40,349 nucleotides of DNA from positions 1-40,349 of the forward strand of contig MFES01000001.1 of NCBI GenBank assembly GCA_001779955.1. The letters are read 5' to 3'. Positions 503-38,783 of the stretch are shown here, in pieces; the stretch's first letter is position 1, and each line of letters opens with the position of its first letter. A program made the position numbers and the translations under genes. Source of the DNA: Candidatus Doudnabacteria bacterium RIFCSPHIGHO2_02_FULL_46_11 (GTDB taxonomy: Bacteria > Patescibacteriota > Doudnabacteria > UBA920 > 2-02-FULL-46-11). The notes beneath the pieces were generated by a model, which was given only the letters and a program-made list of their open reading frames with translations, searched no databases and was not told the origin of the DNA.

Positions 503-539
503 ACAGGTCAGACCTCGGTCAGATAGAGGTCTGACCTGT
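503..539. repeat. Perfect 14-bp-stem hairpin ACAGGTCAGACCTC-N9-GAGGTCTGACCTGT; same stem core as 11083-11117
   Basis: Read directly. Lies between the PEBP gene 3' end and the hppA start. No T-run, so it is not a canonical intrinsic terminator. Confidence 0.7.
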
Positions 540-8141: not shown

Positions 8142-8166
8142 GTTACGGCGGATTGATTGATAAACC

Positions 8167-8215
8167 AAAAAAAGACGAACCCGCCGCAACGAGGCGGCGG
8201 GTTCTTGTCTTTTTC
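8167..8215. terminator. Bidirectional intrinsic terminator between metK and island A
   Basis: AAAAAAA-GAC-GAACCCGCCGC-AACGAG-GCGGCGGGTTC-TTGTCTTTTT; 11-bp GC stem at 8177-8204 flanked by A-run and T-run. Confidence 0.8.
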
Positions 8216-8243
8216 CATTGCCTGGGGAGGTGAGGCTCGCGAG

Positions 8244-8792
8244 CTAGAGCGTCAGTTGCTCGTAAACCTCATGTTGGAAGCGTGCGTCAGTCCAGCGGAC
8301 AACCGGGTCGGAACCGGTGAATGCGATCCTCACCAAACCCAACCGGTCGAAGTCTCGAAGAACACTGCCGCGGATGTGGGAGCGTTCCGACTGGCTGGCT
8401 ACCAGACAGACGAACTTCGGTTCGGAAAGCTCCAAGATCCCAGCCGCGCGGTATTTGCGCATAGCCAGGAGCAGCATCCGGCCAGTCTTATGGCCTGCCT
8501 CGCGCGCCACAGCGGTCGCCATGGCCTTGAGACCCTTGTCCGCGGGGTGGTACATACCCTCATCAGTCTTGTAGATCGCCCCCATCTCCAGCAGCTGCTC
8601 AAGGCAGCGGGGGAGATTAAGGTCAACTACAGCCTGATGATCGTGAACGCGCGCTTCAACTTGATGAAGGTTGAGACCGGGGCAGGCGCAGATCTCCGTG
8701 AGCACTGCGCGGTAGTTCCTCCCTTTCTTGCCGGCGATATTGCGCGCCAGCCGCGGGGGGTTGCGTACCGGATGGCCGAGTTGCGACTTCAT
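8244..8792 (-). CDS. Island A: hypothetical protein, probably two tandem winged-helix DNA-binding domains
   Basis: GC-rich with third codon positions mostly G/C. ATG at 8792 is preceded by AGAGGAG; the track ORF begins at GTG 8798. Wing-like segments LEQLLEMGAIYKTDEGMYHP and LRDFDRLGLVRIAF. Confidence 0.6.
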   Translation of the reverse strand: MKSQLGHPVRNPPRLARNIAGKKGRNYRAVLTEICACPGLNLHQVEARVHDHQAVVDLNLPRCLEQLLEMGAIYKTDEGMYHPADKGLKAMATAVAREAGHKTGRMLLLAMRKYRAAGILELSEPKFVCLVASQSERSHIRGSVLRDFDRLGLVRIAFTGSDPVVRWTDARFQHEVYEQLTL

Positions 8793-8932
8793 TACCACAC
8801 TCCTCTGTTCGCGATGGTTTTTTGTAGCGCCGCTGAAGCGTTACATCAAACCTGTCTACGGCTGATGGAAAAGACCATCGAAACCTCCGTGTTTAGATGA
8901 ATAATACCGGCTTTTCGCCGTATATGACTTAA

Positions 8933-11082: not shown

Positions 11083-11117
11083 CAGGTCAGACCTATAGTT
11101 TGCCCAGGTCTGACCTG
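11083..11117. repeat. Hairpin CAGGTCAGACCT-N10-AGGTCTGACCTG, paralog of the 503-539 hairpin
   Basis: 12-bp stem 4 nt after the sod stop; stem sequence identical to the core of the hairpin at 503-539. Confidence 0.7.
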
Positions 11118-11182
11118 TATTAAACGCCCAACATAGTATTAAAAGCCGAAAGCCGCTTAACCATTTGCGGTTGATTTTTGAT

Positions 11183-11211
11183 TTGCATTAAATTTAAAAT
11201 AGTGCTATAAT
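11183..11211 (+). promoter_or_regulatory. Candidate promoter for island B (TTGCAT-N17-TATAAT)
   Basis: Read directly; followed by a 49-nt leader and SD AAGGGGG 4 nt before ATG 11261. Confidence 0.55.
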
Positions 11212-11260
11212 ATATATCATCCCAAAAGAGTACAGACCTCGGCCAAAAGAAGGGGGTAGG

Positions 11261-11593
11261 ATGAAGTTCCGCTCCACAGTACCGGAAGTGGCCATGGTGA
11301 GGGCGCTGTCGGCCGTTCTAGACTGCGACGTGACAATCACGATCGTCGGCGGGGTTGTCACGGTTTTCGCGGATACGAACCGCCGCACAGAACCATTCCA
11401 TCCGTGGCCAGTGCCCAAGGACGAGCTTCCGCTCTCGATGAGGCGCCGCTCCGTGAGTGGCGCGCTGCCTCGGCATCTGGTGAGCGAGATGCTCACAACG
11501 GCACTCGTGATACGCGCCATCAACGCTGGTGCTGTCCCTGAAGAAGTCGATGAGACCCAGTTGCTGCTCGACTGGGACAAAATCGACGAGTAG
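11261..11593 (+). CDS. Island B: hypothetical 110-aa protein
   Basis: GC-rich ORF; I read the codons and third positions are predominantly G/C. Has its own promoter, SD and terminator. No family recognised. Confidence 0.6.
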   Translation: MKFRSTVPEVAMVRALSAVLDCDVTITIVGGVVTVFADTNRRTEPFHPWPVPKDELPLSMRRRSVSGALPRHLVSEMLTTALVIRAINAGAVPEEVDETQLLLDWDKIDE

Positions 11594-11621
11594 CAAAGGA
11601 GGGTTACCTAAAGCAAGCGAA

Positions 11622-11655
11622 CCCCGCGCCAGATTTTTGTGGCGCGGGGAATGTG
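11622..11655 (+). terminator. Intrinsic terminator of island B
   Basis: CCCCGCGCC-AGATTTTTGT-GGCGCGGGG followed by AATGTGTTTT. Confidence 0.7.
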
Positions 11656-11720
11656 TTTTAAATAGACAAATACTCAAAAAATTGATACAATTTTTTTGGC
11701 AAAATTTTATGTTAATATTG

Positions 11721-11769
11721 TAGGATCGTCTAACGGTGGGACACGTGCCTCTGGAGCACAGAATCTTGG
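11721..11769 (+). pseudogene. Truncated 5' two-thirds copy of tRNA-Gln (no T-loop, no 3' acceptor strand)
   Basis: 11723-11769 matches 11795-11841 of the intact tRNA at 44 of 47 positions. One change breaks the anticodon stem (C:A). The acceptor 5' strand is not conserved. Confidence 0.7.
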
Positions 11770-11790
11770 CACGCCCCCACACCTTATCGC

Positions 11791-11864
11791 TCCGGGATCG
11801 TCTAACGGCAGGACATGTGCCTCTGGAGCACAGAATCTTGGTTCGAATCCAAGTCCCGGAACCA
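11791..11864 (+). tRNA. tRNA-Gln (anticodon CUG), CCA encoded
   Basis: Manual cloverleaf: acceptor TCCGGGA/TCCCGGA, D stem GTC/GAC, anticodon stem TGTGC/GCACA with loop CTCTGGA, T arm CTTGG-TTCGAAT-CCAAG, discriminator A plus CCA. Confidence 0.85.
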
Positions 11865-11892
11865 GAAAAGACGGCGTCTTTAGATAGCATCC

Positions 11893-12070
11893 TTTTTCTA
11901 TAGGCGACTTGGATTCGAACGGGAAGGGGGTTGGGGAAACGGTAGTTTCCCCGTGGTGGAAATACTAAAACCGCAAGGTTTTAGAAAGGCGGTCAATGAC
12001 CGCCGCGTGAGATTCCAGGTCCCGGAACCATTGGGTGTGAGGGTGAAAATCCATATCCCCCAGCCAAGAA
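11893..12070 (+). ncRNA. Candidate structured RNA of unknown class, built around a split tRNA-Gln T-arm/acceptor fragment
   Basis: CTTGGATTCGAA (11908-11919) and TCCAGGTCCCGGAACCA (12014-12030) match the tRNA-Gln 3' third. Between them lie 94 nt with three GC hairpins (11933-11952; 11967-11982 with a GCAA loop; 11988-12004). The unit ends at a strong terminator. Confidence 0.4.
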
Positions 12071-12100
12071 AAAACCGCTATTTGCTAGCGGTTTTTTCTT
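12071..12100 (+). terminator. Intrinsic terminator closing the tRNA-Gln/candidate RNA unit
   Basis: AAAACCGCTA-TTTGC-TAGCGGTTTTTTCTTT. Confidence 0.8.
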
Positions 12101-12117
12101 TGTTAAATTAAATAGTT

Positions 12118-12149
12118 TCGCCGCGCACCTAAAAATCGGTGCGCGGCGA
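12118..12149 (-). terminator. GC hairpin downstream of island C
   Basis: TCGCCGCGCACC-TAAAAATC-GGTGCGCGGCGA, 12-bp stem; the T-run on the minus strand is weak. Confidence 0.5.
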
Positions 12150-12199
12150 ATGCGAATCCGAATTCATCTCAGTTGTGGGTCCCGAGACGCTTCGTCCGA

Positions 12200-12457
12200 C
12201 TATCTGACCTCGGCTGAGCAGTTCCTCGCAGCGTACCGAGCGGCACAGAAACCCAGATACCGAGTAGTTCCGAGCGTGCGATCGTCCCTGTATGAAGAGT
12301 GGATCTGCCCTTCTTTGTAGCCCTCTGTCCACTCGGCACGACGCTGTTCGCCCTCCTCGACGCTCAAGCCGGGATACTTCGGACAAGTGAGAATATGCGG
12401 AGTCTCAATCTGATCCCGTACAACAGGGCGCCTGCAGAGTTCGCAGGTTTTTGGCAT
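12200..12457 (-). CDS. Island C: hypothetical 85-aa protein with N-terminal CxxC
   Basis: ATG preceded by GAAGGGGGG; MPKTCELCRRP...LTCPKYPG. The frame choice is uncertain, because an alternative frame 12129..12386 is also open. Confidence 0.4.
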   Translation of the reverse strand: MPKTCELCRRPVVRDQIETPHILTCPKYPGLSVEEGEQRRAEWTEGYKEGQIHSSYRDDRTLGTTRYLGFCAARYAARNCSAEVR

Positions 12458-12540
12458 TTGACCCCCCTTCGTTGTGAACTAGATACTAAAATAATGCCAC
12501 GCTTTTGGAGTGGTGTAAACATTCAATCCAAAAAGCCTTG

Positions 12541-15578: not shown

Positions 15579-16385
15579 ATGCAAAAAGTAGACATCCTCG
15601 GCGTAAAAATTGACGCCCTGAAAAAAAATGAATTCCGGCAGCGTTTGCGTTCTCTGCTCGATGCAACGGAACGAAACAATAAAATAGTTACCACCACTTA
15701 CTCCGAATTTATCGTTACCGCCCAAAAGGACGAACGGTTCAGGGCTATCTTAAATTCAGCGGAACTAAATTTAGCCGATGGCATAGGCATACTTTGGGCG
15801 GCCACATATTTAAATGCAAAAATCAAAAATCAAAAATTAAAATTAGAAAAAATTAAACTTTTTTTAAAAACCGCCTATTGGACGGCCTTCGAGCAAGAAA
15901 AAATCCGAGATGTAATTCCGGAGCGCCTGCCCGGCGCCGATATTATTTGGGACGTATGCCAGATTGCCGAACAAACAGGCAATTCAATTTTTCTGCTTGG
16001 CGGCCACGGCCCGGTGGATGAAATACTTAAAAATAAGTTCCCGGCCCTAAAAATCGCTGGCCGGTATGAAGGCAACCCAAATGAGCCTGAACTAGCCGAA
16101 AGAATTAAAAAGACGAATACTGATATTTTGCTTGTCGCCTTCGGGCCAATTAAGCAAGAATACTGGCTCATGCATAATAGAAGCGATTTAAATGTAAAAA
16201 TCGCCGTGGGCCTGGGAGGAACCTTTGATTATTTAGTCGGTAATAAAAAAAGAGCAGGGGATACTTGGCAAAAATACGGGCTTGAATGGCTACACCGCCT
16301 ACTAACCCAGCCCTGGCGAATACGGCGAATGTGGAACGCGATTATCGTTTTTTCCTGGTTGGTGGTTCGACAAAAAATGAATTAA
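15579..16385 (+). CDS. WecB/TagA/CpsF family (GT26) glycosyltransferase
   Basis: 268 aa; ADGIGILWAA, IFLLGG, DILLVAFGPIKQEYW and GVGGTFD-like LGGTFDY. Confidence 0.8.
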   Translation: MQKVDILGVKIDALKKNEFRQRLRSLLDATERNNKIVTTTYSEFIVTAQKDERFRAILNSAELNLADGIGILWAATYLNAKIKNQKLKLEKIKLFLKTAYWTAFEQEKIRDVIPERLPGADIIWDVCQIAEQTGNSIFLLGGHGPVDEILKNKFPALKIAGRYEGNPNEPELAERIKKTNTDILLVAFGPIKQEYWLMHNRSDLNVKIAVGLGGTFDYLVGNKKRAGDTWQKYGLEWLHRLLTQPWRIRRMWNAIIVFSWLVVRQKMN

Positions 16386-16443
16386 AAAGCAATTACCGCC
16401 GACCAATGATCGACGGTAAAGGCCACACGGCCGGGTTGATGCG

Positions 16444-16653
16444 TCAGGTGGTGGCGACTACTGCCCGATCGGGGCGATTGTCATGCACGAGAGCATTCAG
16501 GCGCGCTTTCTCTGCCCTGAAGAACTCCCAGCAGTCAGCACAGTTACCGACATGCGCTTCAGCCGCTTGGCGGAGACCCGCAAATAGCGTCGGGCTGATG
16601 CTGGCGTTCATAATGACGTTGCGAACGTGGAGACAACCTGCCGCTTCTGCCAT
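16444..16653 (-). CDS. Island D: 70-aa protein with anti-sigma-factor-type zinc finger motif (H-x3-C-x2-C)
   Basis: ATG at 16653 preceded by GGAGGAAG (the track ORF starts earlier). AEAHVGNCADCWEFF fits the zf-HC2/ZAS pattern. GC-rich. Confidence 0.5.
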   Translation of the reverse strand: MAEAAGCLHVRNVIMNASISPTLFAGLRQAAEAHVGNCADCWEFFRAEKARLNALVHDNRPDRAVVATT

Positions 16654-16757
16654 ACTTCCTCCGATGTGTTGCGGGCAAAAATAAAGCACGCTAGGCGTGC
16701 CGCGGATGGTTCTTTATTTGTCGAAACAAGACCATATTAGATATAATTTAACTTATC

Positions 16758-18162: not shown

Positions 18163-19476
18163 ATGTTCGAGGCTACAAGGGTGAAAATAAGAAACAAAAA
18201 AACTAAATTGAGGCAAACCATTTTAAAATCGGCCTTAGTCGTTTTTTTGTCATTAGCCCTTGCTTTGGCAAACAATATACCTCTGCCGGATGCCGGTGCG
18301 GCCACAATTGAACAAGAACTTCAGGCCAAACAGCAACGGTTAAAAGAACTTGAAAACCAAATTAGTCAAACCACCAAAGATATAAACTCATTGGTTAAAC
18401 AGCAGAATACCTTACAGAACTCAATTAAAATTTTTACGGCGCAGATAAGCCAGGTTACCACCCAGATTGTCGTTACGGAAACTAAAATCGAAATCGCGGG
18501 CGATAAAATCACCGAGCTTAACGGGCAAATTCGCATCAAAGAAAATGAGGTGGAAAGAGTCAAACAAAACCTGGCCAACCTGATACGGGAACTCTACCAG
18601 ATGGATAGGTCAGACTCAACCATTATGGCCTTAATGAATAACGACAACCTTTCAGATTTCATTAACGCGGTTTCCCAAATAGAAAACGTACATGGCCGAA
18701 GCTATGAACTGCTCCAGGATATTAAGGAGCTAAAAGTACAGCTTGAAGACAACCGCGCGGAGGTGCAGGAGCAAAAAAAAGAGCTTGAGCAGTTTGAAAT
18801 CGCCCTTACGGACCAGAAAAATCTGCTTGATAACCAAGTAAAGGCAAAGAATGATTTATTGGTTAAAACCAAAAATCAGGAAAGTATCTACCAGGCATTG
18901 CTGGCGCAAAACAAGAACGAAGAGGATAAAATACAGCAGGAAATTCAAGATTTAGAGAATAAAATCCGGGTACAGCTTGGTGAGCGTACTTCACCGGGCA
19001 AAAAAGGTTTATTTAAAATTTGGCCGATGAACGGCACCTTGACCCAAGGCTACGGCAACACAGGTTTCCGTTCGCTTGGCTATTCGTTCCATAACGGTTT
19101 AGACATTGCCGCCGCAGCCGGCACGCCAATTTATAACGTTTACGACGGCACGGTTAACGGCACAGGTTCAAGCGATAAGGCTTACGGCAACTGGGCCACG
19201 GTCAGGTATGAATTGCCAAACGGCCGCTGCGTGGTAGCCCTTTATGCCCATATGCTTAAGCGGAGCGTAAGCGACGGCCAAAGCCTGAAGGGCGGAGCGG
19301 TGATCGGTACCGAGGGCAACACCGGCAATACCACACGTTTGCTTTACGGACCGCATCGCGGTTTTCACCTGCATTTTACCGTATTTGACTGTGAAGGATT
19401 CCAAATTGTAAAAAGCGTAAACGGAAACTACATGGTGCCAGTTGGGTATACCTATAACCCCAACGATTTCCTGTAA
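18163..19476 (+). CDS. M23 family metallopeptidase with long N-terminal coiled coil
   Basis: 437 aa; signal/TM, Q/E/K-rich coiled coil, then HNGLDIAAAAGTPIYNVYDGTV...ALYAHM...GNTG. TTACAA-N17-TATAAT (18125-18153) lies 9 nt from the ATG. Confidence 0.85.
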   Translation: MFEATRVKIRNKKTKLRQTILKSALVVFLSLALALANNIPLPDAGAATIEQELQAKQQRLKELENQISQTTKDINSLVKQQNTLQNSIKIFTAQISQVTTQIVVTETKIEIAGDKITELNGQIRIKENEVERVKQNLANLIRELYQMDRSDSTIMALMNNDNLSDFINAVSQIENVHGRSYELLQDIKELKVQLEDNRAEVQEQKKELEQFEIALTDQKNLLDNQVKAKNDLLVKTKNQESIYQALLAQNKNEEDKIQQEIQDLENKIRVQLGERTSPGKKGLFKIWPMNGTLTQGYGNTGFRSLGYSFHNGLDIAAAAGTPIYNVYDGTVNGTGSSDKAYGNWATVRYELPNGRCVVALYAHMLKRSVSDGQSLKGGAVIGTEGNTGNTTRLLYGPHRGFHLHFTVFDCEGFQIVKSVNGNYMVPVGYTYNPNDFL

Positions 19477-21419
19477 ACCCCTCCCCGCGGCAAGACCGCG
19501 GGGCATTCGCGCGAGGCGTTGTAAATTTTATAGTACCTTGCAAAAACATAATAAGTGCGCCCCGTCATCAGGGCGCACTCATTCTTTATGCGTTCAGAAG
19601 CCTCCTTCAACCCAAGTAAAACTACTACTCGAATTTTACGCCCTTCTCCCCGGAGCAAATGCGGCGGATAAGCGCCGCAAAAACGAGGCAGTTGCACTGC
19701 ACGATCGAGAAGTTCAGCAGGCCTGGCACTCACTTCGAGGTAAAACCCGATCAGCCTGTTCAAGGCCGAAAGCAGCTCATCGCCGGCAATGTCCCGAGCA
19801 GCCTCTGCTGGCCGTTCCTCGCCCGACCTGGCCTCCCCAAGCAGTTCAGGGGGCTCTGGATTATGCGGGTGCATGGGCCCGCGGGGTCGAGTGGCTGTTA
19901 TGGCCGGCCGCCATGACTTTTGCTCAGGGGTCAGCAGGCCATTGAAGCGGAAGACCCGCAAAATGAATGACTTCAAGGACCCCGTAAACTCCTCACCAAA
20001 CACCTGACTCGCTTCAACATACAGCGCGCGTCGGTCCACCGGCGGGCTTCCTGACTCGAGACGCTCCTTGACCCACCTGCGCAGCCTCTCATCTCCCGTC
20101 TGTGCGTCTGTCGTCTGTTGTCTGTCGGCCCTAGGGGCTTGTCGCGGAGCCGGAGCAGGATGCCACTTGCGCTGCTCGGATGTGAGTAAATCGTTACCCG
20201 CGAATGCCCGATAGACGAACGAAGGGAAGCTGCCTACGGAATCAGTACCGTAAACATGCAGGGCTTCCGCGTAAAGATCCTTGCGACTCGCGGGTGGATC
20301 AGCTGATTCCAGTCGGTTTTTGACCCAAAGCTGCAAGAGGCTGACCTCGGCGGTCCGCCACGTAGTTTGTATTGAACCGACCCATGCCCTCTGTTCAGGC
20401 GTGAGTAGCTCATTATGAACGAAACAGTACTGGCTGAAGGACGCAAAGTTCGCCGCATATTCCGGGAACTTAGCTTGCGCCTCGATGTACAGCGCCCTTC
20501 GGTTCGCCGGCGGTATATCTGACTCGAGACGCTCCTTGACCCATGGCCTTAGCTCGCCCCTTGAGCCGGACAGATCGATGTCTCGGGACACGACAGGCGT
20601 CACAGCCTGCCGCGTTTCTGCGGGTTCTGGACATTCACGCGGGACGTCTTCTGATACAGGGGCGATATGTGCCTCGCTCGGCCGTGCATCGGCAGCATTG
20701 CCATTCTGCGACTGTAATACCGAACCCGCAATAAACTCCTGCATGGCCTGAAGGACAGCTGGCGAAGAATGACCATGGAGGTTGAGGCCGCGCGCACCGG
20801 CCAAATACAGCATAGGCCCGTAGTGGCTATCCCAAGCCTGCCAAGCCCTGGAACGCGTCCTTTGAGGGGATTCCCCCCGATGATCGTCAGCATGGCGCTG
20901 GAGTTCGAGAAACTCCACGAGGAACTCAAGCGGGACCATGTCATCGCCAGATTCTCGGCTAGCAATACTTCTCACGGCCGCCAAAAGATCGCGGATTTCC
21001 TTACTGATGAGGTGGACTTCAACGGTCAGACCTTGCGGATTTCCAGCTCGGCCGCCAAACCGCACCATATGGCTGATGCGGCCATCCGGCAAATCGCCCA
21101 GAGCTTCGCCGACGCTATCGTCTGCGGGGCCCACCGTTTCGCGCGGAATGACGATTACCCCCGAATGGCTAGCATTTGGCTTGACTACCCACACTGAGAA
21201 TTTGCCCTCATCGAGCGAAAAGGCCTTGTATTTCCGAGGAAAAATGCTGCCATGCTGAATGACCAAGCCGCCTGTCTCGAGAGCCAGCCAGTCCAGACAG
21301 CCAGGCAGGCCCAGGTGAGGGAAACGATCCTGCAGCTTCTCTACGTATAGCCGCAAATCGCAGTTGAACACCGCGGCCAAATAAGCCGCGACTCCTTGTT
21401 TGTAATTGCTCTGCTTCAT
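19452..21419 (-). CDS. Island E: 655-aa hypothetical protein with three tandem ~57-aa repeat modules
   Basis: Uninterrupted GC-rich ORF; ATG 21419 preceded by TGAGGTG (the track starts at TTG 21431). Repeats at aa 294-350, 365-423 and 450-507 of the track numbering. No family recognised. Confidence 0.7.
   Translation of the reverse strand: MKQSNYKQGVAAYLAAVFNCDLRLYVEKLQDRFPHLGLPGCLDWLALETGGLVIQHGSIFPRKYKAFSLDEGKFSVWVVKPNASHSGVIVIPRETVGPADDSVGEALGDLPDGRISHMVRFGGRAGNPQGLTVEVHLISKEIRDLLAAVRSIASRESGDDMVPLEFLVEFLELQRHADDHRGESPQRTRSRAWQAWDSHYGPMLYLAGARGLNLHGHSSPAVLQAMQEFIAGSVLQSQNGNAADARPSEAHIAPVSEDVPRECPEPAETRQAVTPVVSRDIDLSGSRGELRPWVKERLESDIPPANRRALYIEAQAKFPEYAANFASFSQYCFVHNELLTPEQRAWVGSIQTTWRTAEVSLLQLWVKNRLESADPPASRKDLYAEALHVYGTDSVGSFPSFVYRAFAGNDLLTSEQRKWHPAPAPRQAPRADRQQTTDAQTGDERLRRWVKERLESGSPPVDRRALYVEASQVFGEEFTGSLKSFILRVFRFNGLLTPEQKSWRPAITATRPRGPMHPHNPEPPELLGEARSGEERPAEAARDIAGDELLSALNRLIGFYLEVSARPAELLDRAVQLPRFCGAYPPHLLRGEGRKIRVVVLLGLKEASERIKNECALMTGRTYYVFARYYKIYNASRECPAVLPRGGVYRKSLGL
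19476..19516. repeat. Left copy of a 41-bp inverted repeat (partner at 25685-25725)
   Basis: AACCCCTCCCCGCGGCAAGACCGCGGGGCATTCGCGCGAGG; 40 of 41 identical to the reverse complement of the partner. Contains the hairpin CCCCGCGG-CAAGA-CCGCGGGG and starts on the last base of the M23 stop codon. Confidence 0.85.
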
Positions 21420-21558
21420 TTGGCACCTCAACTTATGGGGGAAAAGTAGGGATATTCAATTGGAAAGGAACTGCTTGCAGGTAGTATATCCAAACCTTCT
21501 GGAATGAGAAAGAGAAGTTCAATATAACGATAATGCAGGACCCAAGGCGGTTTTTAGT

Positions 21559-21587
21559 TTGACATTTTTTTTATTAATATGTATAAT
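21559..21587 (+). promoter_or_regulatory. Consensus sigma70 promoter for island F (TTGACA-N17-TATAAT)
   Basis: Exact hexamers at 21559-21564 and 21582-21587; SD AAGGAGG at 21606-21612; ATG at 21617. Confidence 0.7.
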
Positions 21588-21616
21588 GAATTTCTACCCA
21601 ACGGCAAGGAGGCCGA

Positions 21617-21952
21617 ATGGAAGAACGCAACATCGCCAGTTTCGACACTTACGCGAAGGTGATCAATGCCGACGGCAGCCTTCGTGTCGCGACCAAGCGC
21701 CATCTGATCCGCCGGGCCAGGACGATCGCCCAAGCCAGCGGCGGCACCCTCACATCAGTGCAAATGCTGCGGGTCTGCGGGGACACCGAGGAGGGACGTG
21801 AGCGTGTCACCCAGGTCTTGGCTCAGGCTGTTCTGAATGAGGCCGGGAGCCACACCATGGCCGAGGATTTCACCGGTTACGGGACGCTGGTCGGAAGCAC
21901 GAGGTCGAGACAGAAAACCGGCCACCGTCAGCGACGGAACATGGGCGCGTAG
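21617..21952 (+). CDS. Island F: hypothetical 111-aa protein, divergent partner of island E
   Basis: GC-rich ORF with consensus promoter, SD and terminator; basic C-terminal tail RSRQKTGHRQRRN. No family recognised. Confidence 0.6.
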   Translation: MEERNIASFDTYAKVINADGSLRVATKRHLIRRARTIAQASGGTLTSVQMLRVCGDTEEGRERVTQVLAQAVLNEAGSHTMAEDFTGYGTLVGSTRSRQKTGHRQRRNMGA

Positions 21953-22010: not shown

Positions 22011-22056
22011 AAACGACCCGGTTGAACACCACGCCGGGTCGTTTCGTATTTCTTTT
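22011..22056 (+). terminator. Intrinsic terminator of island F
   Basis: AAACGACCCGG-N12-CCGGGTCGTTT followed by CGTATTTCTTTT. Confidence 0.75.
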
Positions 22057-22195
22057 CTCGTTCAGCAGGGGAATATGCGACGATTGAATTTACACTTGTC
22101 ATCTACTCACCCTAAACACTTTATTCACTACCCTTCCTAACTTATCCACTATCTTCGCGATATCCGCTTATTTTTTGCTCTAAAAAATATGTTTA

Positions 22196-23158
22196 TTAAC
22201 TTTTCATATCGCGTCCGCCATGAAATTTTTCATGAACATCGCGCAGGCGCTTGTTGGTAATATGGGTATAGACTTGTGTAGTAGCCACGTTCTTGTGTCC
22301 CAATAATTCCTGTATGCTCCGCAAATCAGCGCCATGGGCGAGTAAATCAGTGGCATAAGAATGGCGGAAAGTATGAGGCGTCACTTTTTTAGAAAGCCCG
22401 GCCAGCCTGGCGCATTTGGATACCATAACCTGAATTGAGCGGGCGGATAATCTGTTCTCGTCATCTTTTGATTTTAAGCTAATAAACAAAGCTTTGGCCA
22501 AACTATAATGGCGCGCCGCTAAATATCGACGAAGCCATTGGGCCGCCCGGGGCGAGATAAAAATCGTTCGTACTTGTCTGCCCTTGCCAACAATGGAAAG
22601 CTCGTAAGTTTTATCGGTTTTTTTGTCGCTCAACATTGACATCTGATCAACATTTAATGACACCAGTTCCGAAATACGCAAGCCTGACGAAAAAAATAAT
22701 TCCAAAATGGCGCGATCCCGCAATCCTTTAAATGTATCAGTATCAAAGATGCTTAACATTTTTTCCACATCACTGGCTTCCAAAAAAGAAATATTATCGT
22801 CAGACTTTTGTTTAGCCAACTTTACCTTGGAAGAGGGAAGTGAGTCTATATCCCTGTCCGCAAAGTAATTCAGTAAGGCGCGCAAGGCTATCAAGTAGTA
22901 GTTTTGTGATTTTTTACTTAAAAAGCCACCTTTGGGATTTTGATACTTGCGCGCAATATATAAGCGATAGTCCCAAAGATGCTTAGTGGTAAATTCATGC
23001 GGAAATAATTTTTCCTGACCCACGATTTTTAACCAGCCCGTAAAAAGGCGAAGGTACTGATTATAGTTTCTCTGCGTATTATTAGACAAACCTTTCTCAA
23101 CTTCACAGTAATCAAGAAAGGGGAGAATATGCTCTGAAATAGGAATACCGTTCTTCAT
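22196..23158 (-). CDS. Tyrosine site-specific recombinase, XerC/XerD-like
   Basis: 320 aa; N-terminal SAM-like core-binding domain, catalytic region RDRAILELFFSSGLRISE, HTFRHSYATDLL, LLGHKNVATTQVYTH. Backbone-like AT-rich composition. Confidence 0.85.
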   Translation of the reverse strand: MKNGIPISEHILPFLDYCEVEKGLSNNTQRNYNQYLRLFTGWLKIVGQEKLFPHEFTTKHLWDYRLYIARKYQNPKGGFLSKKSQNYYLIALRALLNYFADRDIDSLPSSKVKLAKQKSDDNISFLEASDVEKMLSIFDTDTFKGLRDRAILELFFSSGLRISELVSLNVDQMSMLSDKKTDKTYELSIVGKGRQVRTIFISPRAAQWLRRYLAARHYSLAKALFISLKSKDDENRLSARSIQVMVSKCARLAGLSKKVTPHTFRHSYATDLLAHGADLRSIQELLGHKNVATTQVYTHITNKRLRDVHEKFHGGRDMKS

Positions 23159-25674: not shown

Positions 25675-25684
25675 ACTTACAATA

Positions 25685-25725
25685 CCTCGCGCGAATGCCC
25701 CGCGGTCTTGCCGTGGGGAGGGGTT
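25685..25725. repeat. Right copy of the 41-bp inverted repeat
   Basis: The reverse complement reads AACCCCTCCCCACGGCAAGACCGCGGGGCATTCGCGCGAGG. Starts on the last base of the stop codon of the 25725..26108 gene, the same placement as the left copy. Confidence 0.85.
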
Positions 25726-26108
25726 CACCTTGAACTTTTCCGAAAACCGGCGGCTTGGGCTTCAGCCTCGGTGTTAAAGCACATTTCCGGGTCGGTGCGG
25801 TCATAAAATGAGCCGCCGGGAAGGTGATAAATCCTGCTCGATGAAGAAATATTACCTTTTATTCTGCAGACAACGCCGTTTTCCAGAATATTTTCGCCAA
25901 GCACGGCCTGTGATTGAATATCACCCCGCAAAATGGTAGAATGAATGGGTGATTTTTCAATATTTATAAGGGGTTGAACGCCTGCTCTGCCGCCAATTTT
26001 GCCCGTAAAAAAGCCAAGCAAAAATACGCAAGTAAACGTCGCAGACAGTAAGATTATCTTTTCATTCCGTTTTATAAATTCTTTCAAACTATTCATAAGA
26101 GGGATCAT
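25725..26108 (-). CDS. Sunset-domain protein with N-terminal membrane anchor
   Basis: 127 aa; C-terminal CRIKGNISSSSRIYHLPGGSFYDRT..CF.TEAEAQAAGFRKS pattern. Confidence 0.65.
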   Translation of the reverse strand: MIPLMNSLKEFIKRNEKIILLSATFTCVFLLGFFTGKIGGRAGVQPLINIEKSPIHSTILRGDIQSQAVLGENILENGVVCRIKGNISSSSRIYHLPGGSFYDRTDPEMCFNTEAEAQAAGFRKSSR

Positions 26109-36202: not shown

Positions 36203-36886
36203 TTAGACTTGAACTTTTATGCCGGGACCCATTGTAGAATTAATCGTAACCGTAGAAACATATTGTTTTTTAACCGCGGCGGGTTTGGCCCTGACAACTG
36301 CCTGGTAAAATACCTTAAAGTTCTCGGCCAATTCCGAATTGCCAAGATCTGATTTGCCCAAGGTCGCATGAACGTTTCCGGTATCATCGTTTTTAAAATC
36401 CAGGCGGCCGGCCTTAATTTCTTTAATCGCCTTGGCAATATCCGCGGTCACTGTACCGGTTCGGGGGGAAGGCATAAGCCCTCGCGGACCCAAAATTTTG
36501 GCCACAGGGGCGAGTTTGGGCATCATGGCCGGTTCGGCCACGGCTGTATCGAAATCGGTCTTCTGCGAGCCTTGGATTTCCTTAATCAGTTCTTCCCCGC
36601 CAACCACGTCAGCTCCAGCCTTCTTGGCCTCATCTTCCTTGCCGGCCGTTACAAAAGCGATAACCCTAACTGATTTACCGGTACTGTGGGGCAAGGTAAT
36701 CTGGCCGCGCACAGACTGGTCGCTCTGCTTGGCGTCTATGCTCAAATTGATATGAACTTCCACGCTGCCCTTAAACTTGGTCATGGCGGTTTTTTTGGCA
36801 AGCTCAATAGCCTCTTCGATAGAATAAGCCTTTCCCGCCTCGACTAAACTGTGGGCTTCCTTCAAACGTTTGCTGATTTTAGGCAT
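36203..36886 (-). CDS. rplA: 50S ribosomal protein L1
   Basis: Start moved to ATG 36886 (MPKISKRLKEAH..), because the 45-codon track extension is translated from the leader repeat. VRVIAF, GADVVGGEELI, LGPRGLMPSP. Confidence 0.9.
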   Translation of the reverse strand: MPKISKRLKEAHSLVEAGKAYSIEEAIELAKKTAMTKFKGSVEVHINLSIDAKQSDQSVRGQITLPHSTGKSVRVIAFVTAGKEDEAKKAGADVVGGEELIKEIQGSQKTDFDTAVAEPAMMPKLAPVAKILGPRGLMPSPRTGTVTADIAKAIKEIKAGRLDFKNDDTGNVHATLGKSDLGNSELAENFKVFYQAVVRAKPAAVKKQYVSTVTINSTMGPGIKVQV

Positions 36887-37051
36887 AAGTATTTCCTGGG
36901 GTGGGAAAACTCCCGTTTTCCCCCTCCCACCTACCCCCTTTCCTCCACATCGCTCGGGCTGGCAAAGCCAGACCCTCGCTGGGGCTAAAATTGGGGCAAA
37001 TGAGTGGTGATAATGAAGCAAATCTCTTTGCCTCCCACCTGGTTAGCTTGT
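36887..37051 (-). repeat. GC-rich leader repeat, copy R (upstream of rplA)
   Basis: Hairpin 1 GGTGGGA..TCCCACC at 36900-36931, C-rich CCCCCTTTCCTCC, hairpin 2 GCTCGGGCTGGCAAAGCCAGACCCTCGC at 36952-36979. Near-identical blocks occur in 38600-38783. Confidence 0.75.
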
Positions 37052-37414
37052 TTAAACTTGGTTCTCTTTACGGATTACTGACCAGTGATAGGCAAAAAGC
37101 GGCATGCCGACAATGAGTTGGGCTAAGGCTTGAGCCGCCTGCCTTTCGCGGTCAGCTCGGCGCTGCTGATTTTGCCTGTCTTCTTCTTCAGCCTTGCGCG
37201 CGGCGATTTCCTCGTCGGTTAGTACGCGCTCCTCGCCCACCTTGTCAGTCGGGATTCTTTTTTCAACATAAACCGGATAAGTATCAGCATTTTTAAAGAT
37301 AAAAACCTTGAGGCCCAAATCTATAAAACTGACGCTGCCGGTTATAACCAAAACCAGACCGACGGTCGCGAACAAGTAGAGATATACTTTGCGAAGTGTT
37401 AAATTAAAAGCCAT
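37052..37414 (-). CDS. Small membrane protein with charged coiled region, inserted between rplK and rplA
   Basis: 120 aa; N-terminal TM LYLFATVGLVLVITGSV, E/R/Q-rich middle, C-terminal TM LIVGMPLFAYHW. Confidence 0.55.
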   Translation of the reverse strand: MAFNLTLRKVYLYLFATVGLVLVITGSVSFIDLGLKVFIFKNADTYPVYVEKRIPTDKVGEERVLTDEEIAARKAEEEDRQNQQRRADRERQAAQALAQLIVGMPLFAYHWSVIRKENQV

Positions 37415-37514
37415 ATAGTCAATTTTTCAATTCACAATTTTCAATTTTCAATTAATTATTCAATTGAGAAATTAAGAAATTGTTTAGAAATTAATAATTA
37501 GAAATTCAATAGAC
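37415..37514. repeat. AT-rich intergenic repeat, copy 1 (downstream of rplK)
   Basis: Shares a core of roughly 72 nt, TTTCAATTC(A/G)CAATTTTCAATTTTCAATTAATTATTCAATTGAGAAATTAAGAAATTGTTTAGAAATTA, with 37941-38053. Confidence 0.85.
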
Positions 37515-37940
37515 CTAGTCTTTGATTTCTATTCCCATTGAACGAGCAGTACCGGCAATAATCTTTTCCGCCTGCTCAAGGTCGTTGGCGTTAAGATCCT
37601 GCATTTTCTTCTCGGCAATCTCGCGCAGCTGGGTTTTGGTAATTTTACCGACCTTATCTTTTAAAGGGTTGCCCGAGCCTTTAGGCACGCCGGCCGCTTT
37701 AATCAAAAGGGCGGAGGCCGGAGGGGTCTTTAAAACGAAACTAAAGGTTCGATCCTCGAAAATGGTAATTTCCGCGGGCACGACAGTATCGCCCATTTGC
37801 GCAGTCTGCTGGTTGAAAGCATCAACGAACTCCTTGATATTAATACCGTGGGGGCCAAGGGCGGTACCAACCGGCGGCGCAGGTGTGGCCTTTCCGGCCG
37901 CGATCTGCACTTTTACTATTGTCTTTACTTTCTTAGCCAT
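37515..37940 (-). CDS. rplK: 50S ribosomal protein L11
   Basis: 141 aa; [27 protein letters not shown]...FN. Confidence 0.95.
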
Positions 37941-38053
37941 ACAAATAAATTTTCAATTCGCAATTTTCAATTTTCAATTAATTATTCAATTGAGAAATTA
38001 AGAAATTGTTTAGAAATTAGAAATTAATAATTAGAAATTAATAATTAGAAATT
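37941..38053. repeat. AT-rich intergenic repeat, copy 2 (downstream of nusG), with extra GAAATTAATAATTA units
   Basis: Direct comparison with 37415-37514: one mismatch in the core, and a different number of terminal short tandem units. Confidence 0.85.
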
Positions 38054-38599
38054 CTAGACTTTCTTCACTTGAAGGAAGTCTAGTTCCACCGGGGTCTCGC
38101 GGCCGAAAATGTTAACCATCACGCGTACCTTGCCCTTCTGCTCGTCAATTTCCGAGACTTTGCCTTCATAATCCTTGAATGGCCCGTCCACAATTCTAGT
38201 CAAATCATCCACGGCAAACTCTATCTTGAATTTCGGCTCTTCGGTGCCCATGCGCTTGGTAATGGATTTTATCTCTTCATCGGAAACCGGCGTCGGAATA
38301 GTGCCGGAACCGACAAAACCGGTGACGTTCGGCGTGTTTCGCACGACGTACCAGGAATCATCGGTAACAACCATTTCCACCAAAACATAACCGGGGAAAA
38401 TTTTCTCTTCCACCGTGGAGCGCTTGCCGCTTTTGACCTTGATCTTTTTCTCCTTCGGCACCATGACATTGAAGATTTTATCTTCCATGCCCATGGATTC
38501 GATGCGCTGTCTCAAGTTAAAAGCTACCGCGTCCTCGTGGCCTGAATAGGTGGAGAGCGCGTACCATCGTTTCTCACCAGTACTAATTTGTTTAGGCAT
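38054..38599 (-). CDS. nusG: Transcription termination/antitermination factor NusG
   Basis: 181 aa; WYALSTYSGHE NGN domain and C-terminal KOW (GPFKDYEGKVSEIDEQKGKVRVMVNIFGRETPVEL). Confidence 0.9.
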   Translation of the reverse strand: MPKQISTGEKRWYALSTYSGHEDAVAFNLRQRIESMGMEDKIFNVMVPKEKKIKVKSGKRSTVEEKIFPGYVLVEMVVTDDSWYVVRNTPNVTGFVGSGTIPTPVSDEEIKSITKRMGTEEPKFKIEFAVDDLTRIVDGPFKDYEGKVSEIDEQKGKVRVMVNIFGRETPVELDFLQVKKV

Positions 38600-38783
38600 A
38601 ATTTACAACTGGGGTGGGAAACTTCCGTTTCCCCCTCCCACCTACAGCGCCTTGGGGCTCCAAAGGGTTGCCGGAGGCAACAACTTCTCGCTGCAAGGTT
38701 CCGCCGAAGGCGGGTTCTTACCCCCTTCCTCTATACGCTCGGACTGGCATAGCCAGATCCTCGCTGGGATAACTGAAAGTTTA
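38600..38783 (-). repeat. GC-rich leader repeat, copy N (upstream of nusG), with a 74-nt extra insert
   Basis: Hairpin 1 at 38613-38642 and hairpin 2 at 38737-38764 match copy R. Insert 38646-38719 carries hairpins GTTGCC-GGA-GGCAAC and CCGCC-GAA-GGCGG. Confidence 0.75.

What the first reader, a model, noticed from the sequence alone, without database searches (positions are those of the whole stretch)
19452..21419. 655-aa orphan protein built around three tandem ~57-aa modules
This is the largest GC-rich ORF, and I recognise no known domain in it. Three modules fit the pattern L-x-x-W-V-K-(E/N)-R-L-E-S-x-x-P-P-x-x-R-x-x-L-Y-x-E-A ... S-F-x-x-(F/Y) ... L-L-T-x-E-Q-x-x-W. They lie at aa 294-350, 365-423 and 450-507 (nt 20552-20382, 20339-20163 and 20084-19911). 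Modules 1 and 3 still share a 25-nt identical DNA block, CTGACTCGAGACGCTCCTTGACCCA, at 20519-20543 and 20041-20065. That points to recent duplication or gene conversion. The flanking regions are unique: an N-terminal region of about 290 aa and a proline/arginine-rich linker plus C-terminal region of about 150 aa. The modules look like small helical units, possibly nucleic-acid binding, but that is a guess. A multi-repeat protein paired with a small divergent partner next to a recombinase is the best candidate here for an undescribed system.
Basis: seen in the sequence. Interest (0 to 1): 0.85.

Follow-up and report, generated by a model that had tools for sequence, protein, structure and literature searches.

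The report
Orphan repeat protein on foreign islet
A real 655-residue gene with three internally duplicated small helical modules sits on a 2.6-kb GC-rich piece of foreign DNA in a groundwater Doudnabacteria (CPR) genome, but it has almost no relatives, no assignable function and no real link to the recombinase gene next to it, so it is an ordinary orphan gene rather than a demonstrable new system.

Summary
ORF 19452-21419 (-) encodes 655 aa with exactly three ~62-aa modules that are 47-54% identical (pairwise E 3e-16 to 8e-23). Synonymous differences between the modules far exceed non-synonymous ones, so the frame is coding.

The gene and a divergent 111-aa gene form a 58% GC islet in a 42-46% GC Patescibacteria genome. 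The neighbouring 'recombinase' is the conserved chromosomal Xer of this clade. It lies in a conserved gltX-M23-xer neighbourhood, and the closest relatives leave only 11-114 nt where the islet sits. The adjacency is therefore coincidental.

No Pfam, PHROG, NCBIfam, PADLOC, PDB, phage or plasmid match exists. An exhaustive scan of 1.84 billion representatives found one relative, a 255-aa stand-alone protein matching only the N-terminal domain. The modules and the small partner have none.

AlphaFold folds one module confidently (pLDDT 88) as a small helical bundle with no significant structural neighbour; the weak hits are winged-helix domains.

My best guess is a cytoplasmic modular binding protein brought in by horizontal transfer, possibly 3'-truncated. 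The function remains untested and interest is low to moderate.

The parts
19452..21419 (-). ORF655 coding sequence (ATG 21419, stop 19452-19454). Deposited as OGE86627.1 / A0A1F5P9M4, an uncharacterised protein of Candidatus Doudnabacteria bacterium RIFCSPHIGHO2_02_FULL.
   Evidence: Stop-free chance about 2e-11. pS is far above pN between the internal repeats.
20700..21419 (-). N-terminal alpha/beta domain (aa 1-240). This is the only part with a relative elsewhere: P0002, 255 aa, stand-alone.
   Evidence: E 3.6e-9 against 1.84e9 representatives; 30% identity over aa 37-232.
20559..20699 (-). Acidic, proline-rich linker 1 (aa 241-287). P0002 ends at the position where this linker begins.
20373..20558 (-). 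Module 1 (aa 288-349)
20157..20342 (-). Module 2 (aa 360-421)
19905..20090 (-). Module 3 (aa 444-505). Modelled by AlphaFold at pLDDT 88 as a small helical bundle.
20478..20543 (.). Module 1 copy of the 66-nt gene-conversion tract (82% identical to the module 3 copy). Its 25-nt identical core is 20519-20543.
20010..20075 (.). Module 3 copy of the 66-nt gene-conversion tract. Its 25-nt identical core is 20051-20075.
19815..19904 (-). Pro/Arg-rich linker (aa 506-535)
19584..19814 (-). C-terminal helical region (aa 536-612), with no relatives
19550..19583 (-). Strong intrinsic-terminator hairpin (15-bp stem plus T-run) lying inside the ORF at about aa 613-624. It is bidirectional, so it could equally serve the convergent M23 gene.
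19473..19524 (.). 52-nt repeat also found at 25677-25728, crossed by the last codons of ORF655. The M23 stop codon lies in its first 4 nt.
21420..21616 (.). AT-rich divergent control region. It holds a perfect TTGACA-17-TATAAT promoter at 21559-21587 (+) for ORF111 and a weaker promoter-like site at 21510-21483 (-) for ORF655. No iterons or operator repeats were found.
21617..21952 (+). ORF111, the divergent small basic partner (pI 10.4, GC3 0.76, AAGGAGG Shine-Dalgarno). It is also an orphan. Deposited as OGE86628.1.
22011..22044 (.). Bidirectional terminator-like hairpin (11-bp arms) after ORF111, close to the right edge of the GC-rich islet

Best explanation
What is shown.
- ORF655 is a genuine protein-coding gene.
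- Together with the divergently transcribed ORF111 it makes up a ~2.6-kb GC-rich islet (about 19.58-22.07 kb).
- One lineage of groundwater Doudnabacteria acquired this islet horizontally. It is inserted between the convergent 3' ends of two conserved housekeeping genes, the M23 peptidase gene and the chromosomal xer gene.
- The neighbouring recombinase is not part of the islet.
- The protein is cytoplasmic and modular. From N to C it has an alpha/beta domain of about 240 aa from a very rare family, a flexible linker, three small helical-bundle modules of about 62 aa, a Pro/Arg-rich linker and a helical C-terminal region.
- The three modules arose by internal tandem duplication. They have since been kept under purifying selection and partly homogenised by a short gene-conversion tract.

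What is inferred.
- The N-terminal domain probably carries the family's core activity, because it exists as a stand-alone protein (P0002).
- The three tethered modules probably act as a multivalent binding array for an extended or repeated ligand. Nucleic acid is the most likely ligand and a protein partner is the alternative.
- ORF111 is small and basic and has a consensus promoter, so it is probably a regulator or partner of ORF655.
- The annotated last ~40 residues are probably not native. The gene has either lost its own 3' end or reads through a terminator into the adjacent non-islet sequence.
For: Coding:
- Between modules, pS is 0.58-0.91 against pN 0.32-0.38. Third-position identity is 22-54% against 58-68% at positions 1 and 2.
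- The N-domain matches P0002 at the protein level, E 3.6e-9 in 1.84e9 proteins.
- Shine-Dalgarno and promoter signals are present.

Foreign islet:
- GC is 0.56-0.65 against 0.37-0.47 in the flanks, and GC3 is 0.60-0.76 against 0.44-0.51.
- Xer is 63-72% identical in the 24 closest of the 80 relatives' loci retrieved (50-56% in the rest), with conserved gltX-M23-xer synteny.
- The xer-M23 gap is 11-114 nt in the nearest convergent relatives L009, L010, L011, L063 and L075.
- The same junctions appear in several independent assemblies, which rules out a chimera.

Modular architecture:
- A module HMM finds exactly three copies.
- AlphaFold models one module at pLDDT 88, all helical.
- The linkers are rich in Pro and Arg, and there is no transmembrane segment (maximum KD19 1.26).

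Weak hints of nucleic-acid binding:
- The only sub-threshold HMM hit is excisionase-like PF07825 (E 0.02-0.1).
- The best-superposed Foldseek hits are wHTH domains: Fur 9ire/4rb2, LexA 3k2z, ASFV I73R 7vwv and Rpc5 WHD 7asv, at rmsd 2.7-3.1 A over 46-52 columns.
- Module 3 has net charge +4 and ORF111 has pI 10.4.

Non-native tail:
- A terminator hairpin and the second-copy 52-nt repeat lie inside the last 43 codons, and GC drops there.
Against: - No function has been tested.
- All similarity to DNA-binding folds is below significance: Foldseek E is at least 2.1 and TM at most 0.51 in PDB and at most 0.56 in the viral library; the Exc hit scores 13-15 bits against a cut-off of 23.
- Modules 1 and 2 have net charge -1 and 0, and the third helix is hydrophobic rather than basic.
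- There are no repeated DNA motifs in the control region for three modules to bind.
- No mobility gene, att repeat or donor was identified, so horizontal acquisition rests only on composition and on absence from relatives.
- With only one distant relative, selection on the N-domain and the C-terminal region cannot be measured.
- The single-sequence full-length model is useless (pLDDT 37), so the N-domain fold is unknown.
Confidence: 0.45

Rival explanations
1. The islet is a functionless, decaying remnant of foreign DNA, such as a fragment of a plasmid, phage or other mobile element. On this reading ORF655 is intact only because the insertion is recent, its 3' end was lost on insertion, and it does nothing for the cell.
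For: - There are no relatives of the modules, the C-terminal region or ORF111 among about 15 billion proteins.
- The ORF has no stop before a strong terminator and runs on through the 52-nt repeat (second copy at 25677-25728) into the M23 gene.
- There are no mobility genes.
- Several other small GC-rich islets with singleton ORFs lie in the same 40 kb, two of them beside a tRNA-Gln that has duplicated fragments.
- The two differences in ORF655 between strain assemblies are both non-synonymous: E455D and R645L.
Against: - A 655-codon open frame is very unlikely without selection or very recent arrival (2e-11).
- Both genes keep good Shine-Dalgarno sites, and ORF111 keeps a 12/12 consensus promoter.
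- The three modules diverged to saturation at synonymous sites while conserving 25 residues, so the protein was under purifying selection for a long time, at least in the donor.
- The islet is present in every contig found that covers this locus: 23 carrying the identical ORF111 and 15 carrying the identical xer, from many samples. No empty site was seen.
Confidence: 0.25
2. ORF655, ORF111 and the adjacent tyrosine recombinase together form an undescribed mobile or recombination-linked system, in which the repeat protein directs or regulates the recombinase.
For: - The three genes are physically adjacent.
- There is a weak excisionase-like hit in module 3.
- The islet lacks its own integrase, as Xer-exploiting elements (IMEX) do. 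That comparison rests on my own knowledge.
Against: - The recombinase is the conserved chromosomal Xer, 63-72% identical in the 24 closest relatives' loci. It has the same gltX-M23 neighbours, and those genomes have no islet.
- There is no dif-like site.
- Flanking repeats are not above the shuffle background: score 18 against 17.4 +/- 2.1.
- The only relative of ORF655 (P0002) is a stand-alone N-domain on a 1-kb contig with no recombinase in view.
- The Exc hit is below threshold and is seen in only one of three modules.
Confidence: 0.06
3. The helical modules bind protein, not nucleic acid. ORF655 would then be an adaptor or effector, for example an anti-defence, toxin-immunity or host-interaction factor carried by a mobile element, with ORF111 as its cognate partner.
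For: - Modules 1 and 2 have neutral or acidic net charge, and the conserved polar residues are balanced (K, R, R against E, E, E).
- There is no significant HTH or wHTH fold match.
- There are no DNA repeats to bind.
- Small divergent or adjacent partner genes are typical of two-component accessory modules. This rests on my own knowledge.
Against: - There is no hit to any PADLOC defence model or PHROG family.
- There is no toxin-like domain.
- The arrangement is divergent rather than operonic.
- Nothing positive points to a protein ligand.
Confidence: 0.18
4. The ORF is not a real gene. It would be either a chance open frame in a GC-rich structured RNA or other non-coding insert, or an assembly chimera.
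For: - GC-rich segments in AT-rich genomes are often structured RNAs (own knowledge).
- Other frames of the islet also carry ORFs of 100-167 aa.
- One public scaffold (L090) is visibly chimeric at 21100.
Against: - The codon-position pattern of divergence between the modules indicates coding.
- The N-domain has a protein-level homologue.
- There is no Rfam match even at E 0.1.
- Identical junctions occur in several independent assemblies.
- The stop-free probability is 2e-11.
Confidence: 0.02

Closest known systems
P0002, an unnamed 255-aa metagenomic protein on 1-kb contigs from ENA assemblies ERZ4903137 and ERZ27254754
   Same: It is homologous to ORF655 aa 37-232 (30% identity; E 3.6e-9 in 1.84e9 proteins). 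Like ORF655 it is a ~60% GC gene in AT-richer flanks, and one of its two source assemblies (ERZ27254754) also carries the islet.
   Different: It is a stand-alone N-domain. It has no modules, no Pro/Arg-rich linker and no C-terminal region. No ORF111-like neighbour is visible on the short contig.
Excisionase-like / lambda Xis family (Pfam PF07825 Exc)
   Same: It is the only HMM hit of any kind. It covers the first helix, the PP loop and the second helix of module 3, around the R-R-W-V-K-E ... P-P motif.
   Different: It scores 13-15 bits against a 23-bit cut-off. It is seen in only one of three modules. The module is predicted all-helical, without the beta wing of Xis-type winged helices (the Xis topology is from my own knowledge).
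Winged-helix / HTH DNA-binding domains (Fur N-domain 9ire/4rb2, LexA 3k2z, ASFV I73R 7vwv, Rpc5 WHD 7asv)
   Same: They are helical cores of similar size. They are the best-superposed Foldseek hits, at rmsd 2.7-3.1 A over 46-52 columns.
   Different: E-values are 2.9-8.4 and TM is 0.41-0.50, which is chance level for a domain this small. The module has no wing and no basic recognition helix.
Myb/SANT R1R2R3-type tandem three-helix repeats, and the tethered NUMOD-type DNA-binding modules of homing endonucleases (both comparisons from my own knowledge)
   Same: The architecture is similar: an array of small helical modules of about 50-60 aa each, with conserved aromatic cores (W, Y, F, F, W here), joined by flexible linkers to another domain.
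   Different: There is no sequence match to Myb, SANT or any NUMOD model in Pfam. The tryptophan spacing differs. No nuclease motif is recognisable in the N-domain. This is a resemblance of design only.
Genomic islands in aquifer Patescibacteria (PMC12455944)
   Same: It is a compositionally deviant, lineage-specific insertion carrying hypothetical genes in a streamlined groundwater CPR genome. That paper reports hundreds of islands, transferred genes and prophages, amounting to up to 13% of genome length.
   Different: This islet is very small (two genes) and has no mobility, defence or metabolic genes. No donor is identifiable.

Membership tests
Pfam PF07825 Exc (excisionase-like, lambda Xis type) | HMM score at or above the gathering cut-off of 23 bits | tested here: not met
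   The whole protein scores 13.1 bits. Module 3 alone scores 15.2 bits. Modules 1 and 2 give no hit.
Pfam PF07825 Exc (excisionase-like, lambda Xis type) | Winged-helix topology, meaning helices followed by a beta-hairpin wing | tested here: not met
   The AlphaFold module model at pLDDT 88 contains only helices (H2-13, H22-33, H35-38, H41-50, H57-60).
HTH / winged-helix DNA-binding domains | Significant structural match to a solved HTH or wHTH domain | tested here: not met
   Against PDB, Foldseek's best E is 2.1 and wHTH hits reach TM 0.41-0.50. Against BFVD, the best E is 2.6 and the hits are all uncharacterised proteins.
HTH / winged-helix DNA-binding domains | Basic surface or basic recognition helix | tested here: inconclusive
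   The modules have net charge -1, 0 and +4. The third helix is hydrophobic and aromatic.
Myb/SANT tandem repeats | Match to Myb_DNA-binding or SANT profile HMMs | tested here: not met
   No such family appears even at E up to 10 for the individual modules.
Integrase-borne integrative element (island with its own tyrosine recombinase) | The recombinase gene belongs to the element, so it is absent from genomes that lack the element | tested here: not met
   The xer gene is 63-72% identical in the 24 closest relatives' loci and keeps its gltX-M23 neighbours there, with no islet present.
Integrase-borne integrative element (island with its own tyrosine recombinase) | Direct att repeats flanking the element | tested here: not met
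   The best edge-to-edge local alignment scores 18, against a shuffle mean of 17.4 +/- 2.1.
IMEX (element integrated by host Xer at dif) | dif-like sites at the element's borders | tested here: not met
   A dif-core pattern scan gave 5 hits against 4.8 expected, none near 19.5 or 22.1 kb. No flanking repeat was found. The dif consensus for CPR bacteria is unknown, so this test is weak.
Known anti-phage defence systems (PADLOC-DB 2.0) | Match of any component to a defence-system HMM | tested here: not met
   ORF655, ORF111 and P0002 match no family at E up to 1.
Phage protein families (PHROGs v4) | Match to a PHROG profile | tested here: not met
   ORF655, its N-domain, each module, ORF111 and P0002 all give no hit. 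tblastn against 50,697 phage records and 72,556 plasmids also gives no match.
Unnamed ORF655-N / P0002 domain family | Significant alignment over the whole ~200-aa domain | tested here: met
   phmmer gives E 3.6e-9 (52 bits) in 1.84e9 proteins. BLASTP gives 30% identity over 202 columns with pairwise E 7e-18.
Structured non-coding RNA (Rfam 15) | Covariance-model match in the islet | tested here: not met
   Only tRNA-Gln at 11791-11861 is found, both at gathering thresholds and at E 0.1.

The most novel reading that the evidence does not exclude
ORF655 and ORF111 could be the founding example of a new two-gene accessory module, mobile or defence-like, in CPR bacteria. In that reading the ~62-aa W...W helical unit would be a previously unseen class of tandem nucleic-acid-recognition repeat, tethered to a new effector domain (the P0002-type N-domain). 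The islet's position at the convergent xer/M23 terminators would then reflect a targeted insertion mechanism that needs no integrase of its own.
Probability: 0.07. Interest if true: 0.65.

Novelty: new variant of a known kind. Interest (0 to 1): 0.27.

Why it matters
If the protein is functional, it adds a new small helical repeat unit and a new N-terminal domain family to the large pool of unannotated CPR proteins. It would also be a clean example of how streamlined episymbiont genomes pick up tiny foreign islets between the terminators of convergent genes.

In practice the main value of this check is negative. The apparent 'repeat protein + partner + recombinase' system dissolves, because the recombinase is the housekeeping Xer in its conserved neighbourhood. 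With a single distant relative there are no comparative data to define a system or a function. Orphan genes of this kind are very common in Patescibacteria, so on its own this one does not open or settle a question.

Tried and rejected
**Homologue searches**
- The k-mer-indexed search of 5.8e9 proteins found only the protein itself for full-length ORF655, nothing for the module profile, and only itself for ORF111.
- The exhaustive phmmer search of 1.84e9 representatives found one relative, covering the N-domain only.
- Back-translated pattern scans used the N-domain alignment and the module alignment against JGI metagenome contigs and IMG/VR. Nothing was confirmed.
- tblastn against INPHARED phages and PLSDB plasmids found nothing for either protein.
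- Module and N-domain HMMs against the six-frame translation of 80 relatives' loci found only the organism's own copies.

**Family and structure libraries**
- Pfam, PHROGs, NCBIfam and PADLOC were searched with the whole proteins and with isolated domains or modules at E up to 10. The only hit was the sub-threshold Exc match.
- PDB sequence searches returned chance-level hits only.
- The full-length single-sequence AlphaFold model had pLDDT 37 and was unusable.
- Foldseek of the confident module model against PDB and BFVD found nothing significant.

**Tests on the islet DNA**
- Iterons or operators in 21420-21616: none.
- att-like or dif-like borders: none above chance. A 15/19 direct match, TTCTTTATGCGTTCAGAAG at 19581-19599 against 22049-22067, follows a hairpin at each edge but scores no better than shuffles.
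- An empty-site strain was sought through contigs carrying the identical Xer. None was found.
- Paralogy between ORF655 or ORF111 and the ORFs of the other GC-rich islets in the window: none.
- The ncRNA alternative: no Rfam hit.
- Literature search for the accession numbers: no paper.

**Ideas considered and dropped**
- I considered re-framing the repeat so that 'LLTPEQ..W + linker + LxxWVKE' would form an IS3-type HTH. I rejected this because the linkers differ in length (10 against 22 aa) and are proline-rich.
- I first thought contig breaks clustered inside ORF655. On inspection the breaks are spread across the whole locus, so this looks like low-coverage fragmentation.

Full report
**1. 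Observation**

The minus strand carries an open frame from ATG 21419 to the stop at 19452-19454, giving 655 aa. An upstream TTG at 21431 would give 659 aa. The ATG has a GAGGTG Shine-Dalgarno 5 nt upstream. At the ORF's own base composition, a stop-free run of 655 codons has probability about 2e-11.

The translation contains exactly three copies of a ~62-aa unit, at aa 288-349, 360-421 and 444-505. They share 25 invariant positions: L..WVK.RLES..PP..R..LY.EA...SF....F..N.LLT.EQ..W. Pairwise BLASTP E-values are 3e-16 to 8e-23. An HMM built from the three copies finds no fourth, degenerate copy.

The 25-nt identical block is real, but its second copy is at 20051-20075, not 20041-20065. It is the core of a 66-nt tract that is 82% identical between modules 1 and 3.

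**2. Is it coding?**

Yes. In a codon alignment of the modules, identity is 58-68% at codon positions 1 and 2 but only 22-54% at position 3. The proportion of synonymous differences (0.58-0.91) far exceeds the non-synonymous proportion (0.32-0.38). The repeats therefore diverged to near-saturation at silent sites while the protein sequence was conserved.

Independently, the N-terminal domain has a protein-level homologue (section 4). Rfam finds nothing in the islet even at E 0.1.

Modules 1 and 3 share far more third-position identity (54%) than the other pairs.

**3. Context**

The ORF and a divergently transcribed 111-aa ORF (21617-21952, +) form an islet of 0.56-0.65 GC. The surrounding genes are 0.37-0.47 GC. 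GC3 is 0.60 and 0.76 for the two islet genes, against 0.44-0.51 for the neighbours.

The 197-nt AT-rich spacer between the two genes carries a perfect TTGACA-17-TATAAT promoter and an AAGGAGG site for ORF111, plus a weaker promoter-like site for ORF655.

The host is a Patescibacteria genome. Both islet proteins are deposited as uncharacterised proteins of Candidatus Doudnabacteria bacterium RIFCSPHIGHO2_02_FULL, as OGE86627.1 and OGE86628.1. No paper mentions them.

The same locus is nearly identical in more than ten assemblies from several samples, and these include both islet junctions. It is therefore not an assembly chimera.

**4. The recombinase is not part of it**

- The tyrosine recombinase at 22196-23158 is 63-72% identical to proteins in the 24 closest of the 80 relatives' loci retrieved and 50-56% identical in the rest. 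These come from Kaiser-, Zambryski-, Nomura-, Doudnabacteria and related groups.
- In most of those loci it lies next to the same M23-peptidase and gltX genes as here.
- Where the arrangement is convergent as in the window, the closest relatives (L009, L010, L011, L063, L075) leave only 11-114 nt between xer and M23. More distant relatives have ordinary genes of host-like GC in that position.
- The 2.6-kb islet is therefore a lineage-specific insertion between the 3' ends of two housekeeping genes, and the recombinase is the chromosomal Xer.
- I found no dif-like site and no flanking repeat above shuffle background.
- No strain with an empty site turned up among 15 contigs carrying the identical Xer.

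**5. Relatives and domains**

No Pfam, PHROG, NCBIfam or PADLOC family matches ORF655, its isolated parts or ORF111. The single exception is a sub-threshold excisionase-like hit (PF07825; 13-15 bits against a cut-off of 23) in module 3 only. PDB sequence searches give chance-level hits.

The indexed search of 5.8e9 proteins returns only the protein itself. A module profile returns nothing. ORF111 returns only itself.

The exhaustive phmmer scan of 1.84e9 cluster representatives finds one relative, P0002. It is 255 aa and 30% identical to aa 37-232, with E 3.6e-9. It is a stand-alone gene that ends where ORF655's first linker begins. It is itself 60% GC in AT-richer flanks, and it sits on 1-kb contigs from two ENA assemblies, one of which (ERZ27254754) also carries the islet.

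Pattern scans of JGI metagenome contigs and IMG/VR found nothing more. Neither did tblastn against phage and plasmid collections or HMM searches of the 80 relatives' loci.

One domain is conserved as a reading frame in one relative. The modules, the C-terminal region and the partner gene are conserved nowhere.

**6. Structure**

The full-length single-sequence AlphaFold model is unusable (pLDDT 37).

A single module, with the three copies as its alignment, folds confidently (pLDDT 88, pTM 0.75). It forms a compact bundle of three main helices plus two short ones.

Foldseek finds no significant neighbour. Against PDB the best E is 2.1, and against BFVD it is 2.6. The few well-superposed hits are winged-helix domains (Fur, LexA, ASFV I73R, Rpc5 WHD) at rmsd 2.7-3.1 A and TM 0.41-0.50. 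That is what any small three-helix bundle would give.

The modules have net charge -1, 0 and +4. The linkers are proline-rich, and the one after module 3 also carries several arginines. No 19-residue window reaches transmembrane hydrophobicity. ORF111 is basic, with pI 10.4.

**7. The 3' end**

The last ~43 codons cross three features in turn:
- a 15-bp-stem intrinsic terminator (19550-19583);
- a 52-nt repeat whose second copy lies at 25677-25728;
- 25 nt of the M23 gene's 3' end.

GC and the coding-like GC pattern fade after about aa 590. Both alternative frames have stops at about 19620-19640. A stop-free run of this length in the tail has a 3-10% chance.

I infer that the annotated C-terminus is not native. 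The gene either lost its own end at insertion or reads through. This cannot be settled without transcripts or homologues.

**8. Mechanism**

Shown: this is a real, long-constrained, modular cytoplasmic protein on a horizontally acquired two-gene islet. Its three helical modules were produced by tandem duplication and were partly homogenised by gene conversion. It is unrelated to the adjacent Xer.

Inferred, at roughly 0.45 for the whole package and perhaps 0.25 for nucleic acid as the specific ligand:
- The P0002-type N-domain carries the core activity.
- The three tethered modules act as a multivalent binding array.
- The small basic ORF111 regulates or partners ORF655.

Rival explanations:
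- an inert remnant of foreign DNA (0.25);
- a protein-binding adaptor or effector (0.18);
- a non-gene or assembly artefact (0.02).

**9. Comparison with known things, and verdict**

Every membership test against a named family failed (Exc, wHTH, Myb/SANT, integrase-borne island, IMEX, PADLOC, PHROGs, Rfam). The only family it belongs to is the unnamed two-member N-domain family.

In design it recalls tandem three-helix DNA-binding arrays (Myb R1R2R3) and the tethered modular DNA-binding domains of homing endonucleases. Both comparisons rest on my own knowledge of those architectures, not on any match found here.

Small compositionally deviant islands carrying hypothetical genes are reported to be common in aquifer Patescibacteria (PMC12455944).

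The sequence family is new, but the kind of object is familiar: an islet-borne orphan gene with internally duplicated helical modules. There is no evidence for a new system. Interest is about 0.27.

Noticed in passing
window 19473-19524 and 25677-25728: A 52-nt repeat, 92% identical, is present in inverted orientation. It contains the hairpin CCCCGCGG-TCTTG-CCGYGGGG. In both copies the stop codon of an upstream gene lies within the repeat's first 4 nt: M23 TAA at 19474-19476, and the ArfC-like gene's TGA at 25725-25727. It is absent from the 80 relatives' loci and from IMG/VR. It could be a REP-like or 3'-UTR element.
   Followed up: partly
window 11194-12460: tRNA-Gln (11791-11864) is accompanied by a 47-nt partial copy just upstream (11723-11769, 94%) and a copy of its 3' end downstream (12011-12030, 90%). 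GC-rich islets flank it (11194-11600 and 12129-12460, about 0.6 GC), carrying singleton ORFs P0007 (110 aa) and P0008 (85 aa). This looks like the scars of integration at the tRNA gene.
   Followed up: partly
window 8157-8900 and 16286-16689: Two more GC-rich (0.59-0.60) intergenic islets lie here, each with long ORFs on both strands and no Pfam hit. The first lies downstream of metK and holds P0006, a 247-aa hypothetical protein. The second lies between the WecG/TagA-type glycosyltransferase gene and gltX and holds P0009, 69 aa, named 'zinc-finger domain-containing'. Neither is similar to ORF655 or ORF111.
   Followed up: partly
window 19348 (L001/L085 variant): One strain assembly (ERZ27254845 k141_1502730) differs from the window at only 4 positions in 14.7 kb. 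All four lie between 19348 and 21754. One is a nonsense change, G396stop, in the M23 peptidase; it removes the part of the protein carrying the HLH motif. The others are R645L and E455D in ORF655 and a synonymous change in ORF111.
   Followed up: partly
L090 (ENA ERZ28563641 scaffold_72438), joined at window 21100 and inside xer: This public scaffold is chimeric. Its first 192 nt are unrelated GC-rich sequence fused in frame to ORF655 at residue ~107. A run of N plus about 150 nt of unrelated sequence interrupts xer, giving a 378-aa call.
   Followed up: yes
L002/L003 (contigs carrying P0002): The only relative of the N-domain lies on ~1-kb contigs from two samples. The contigs end at exactly the same base on one side and 12 nt apart on the other. 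This suggests the gene is bounded by repeats or sits in variable contexts. The gene is 0.60 GC, against 0.49 and 0.32 in its two flanks.
   Followed up: partly
window 37409-37506 and 37935-38032; 36878-36922 and 38591-38635: A 98-nt AT-rich direct repeat (90% identical) and a 45-nt repeat (73% identical) recur between short minus-strand ORFs near the end of the window. They may be duplicated promoter or leader regions.
   Followed up: no
window 503-538 and 11083-11118: Each arm of this 36-nt inverted-repeat pair (83% complementary between arms) is itself a hairpin, built from CAGGTCAGACC and GGTCTGACCTG. They may be a shared terminator or another dispersed repeat family.
   Followed up: no
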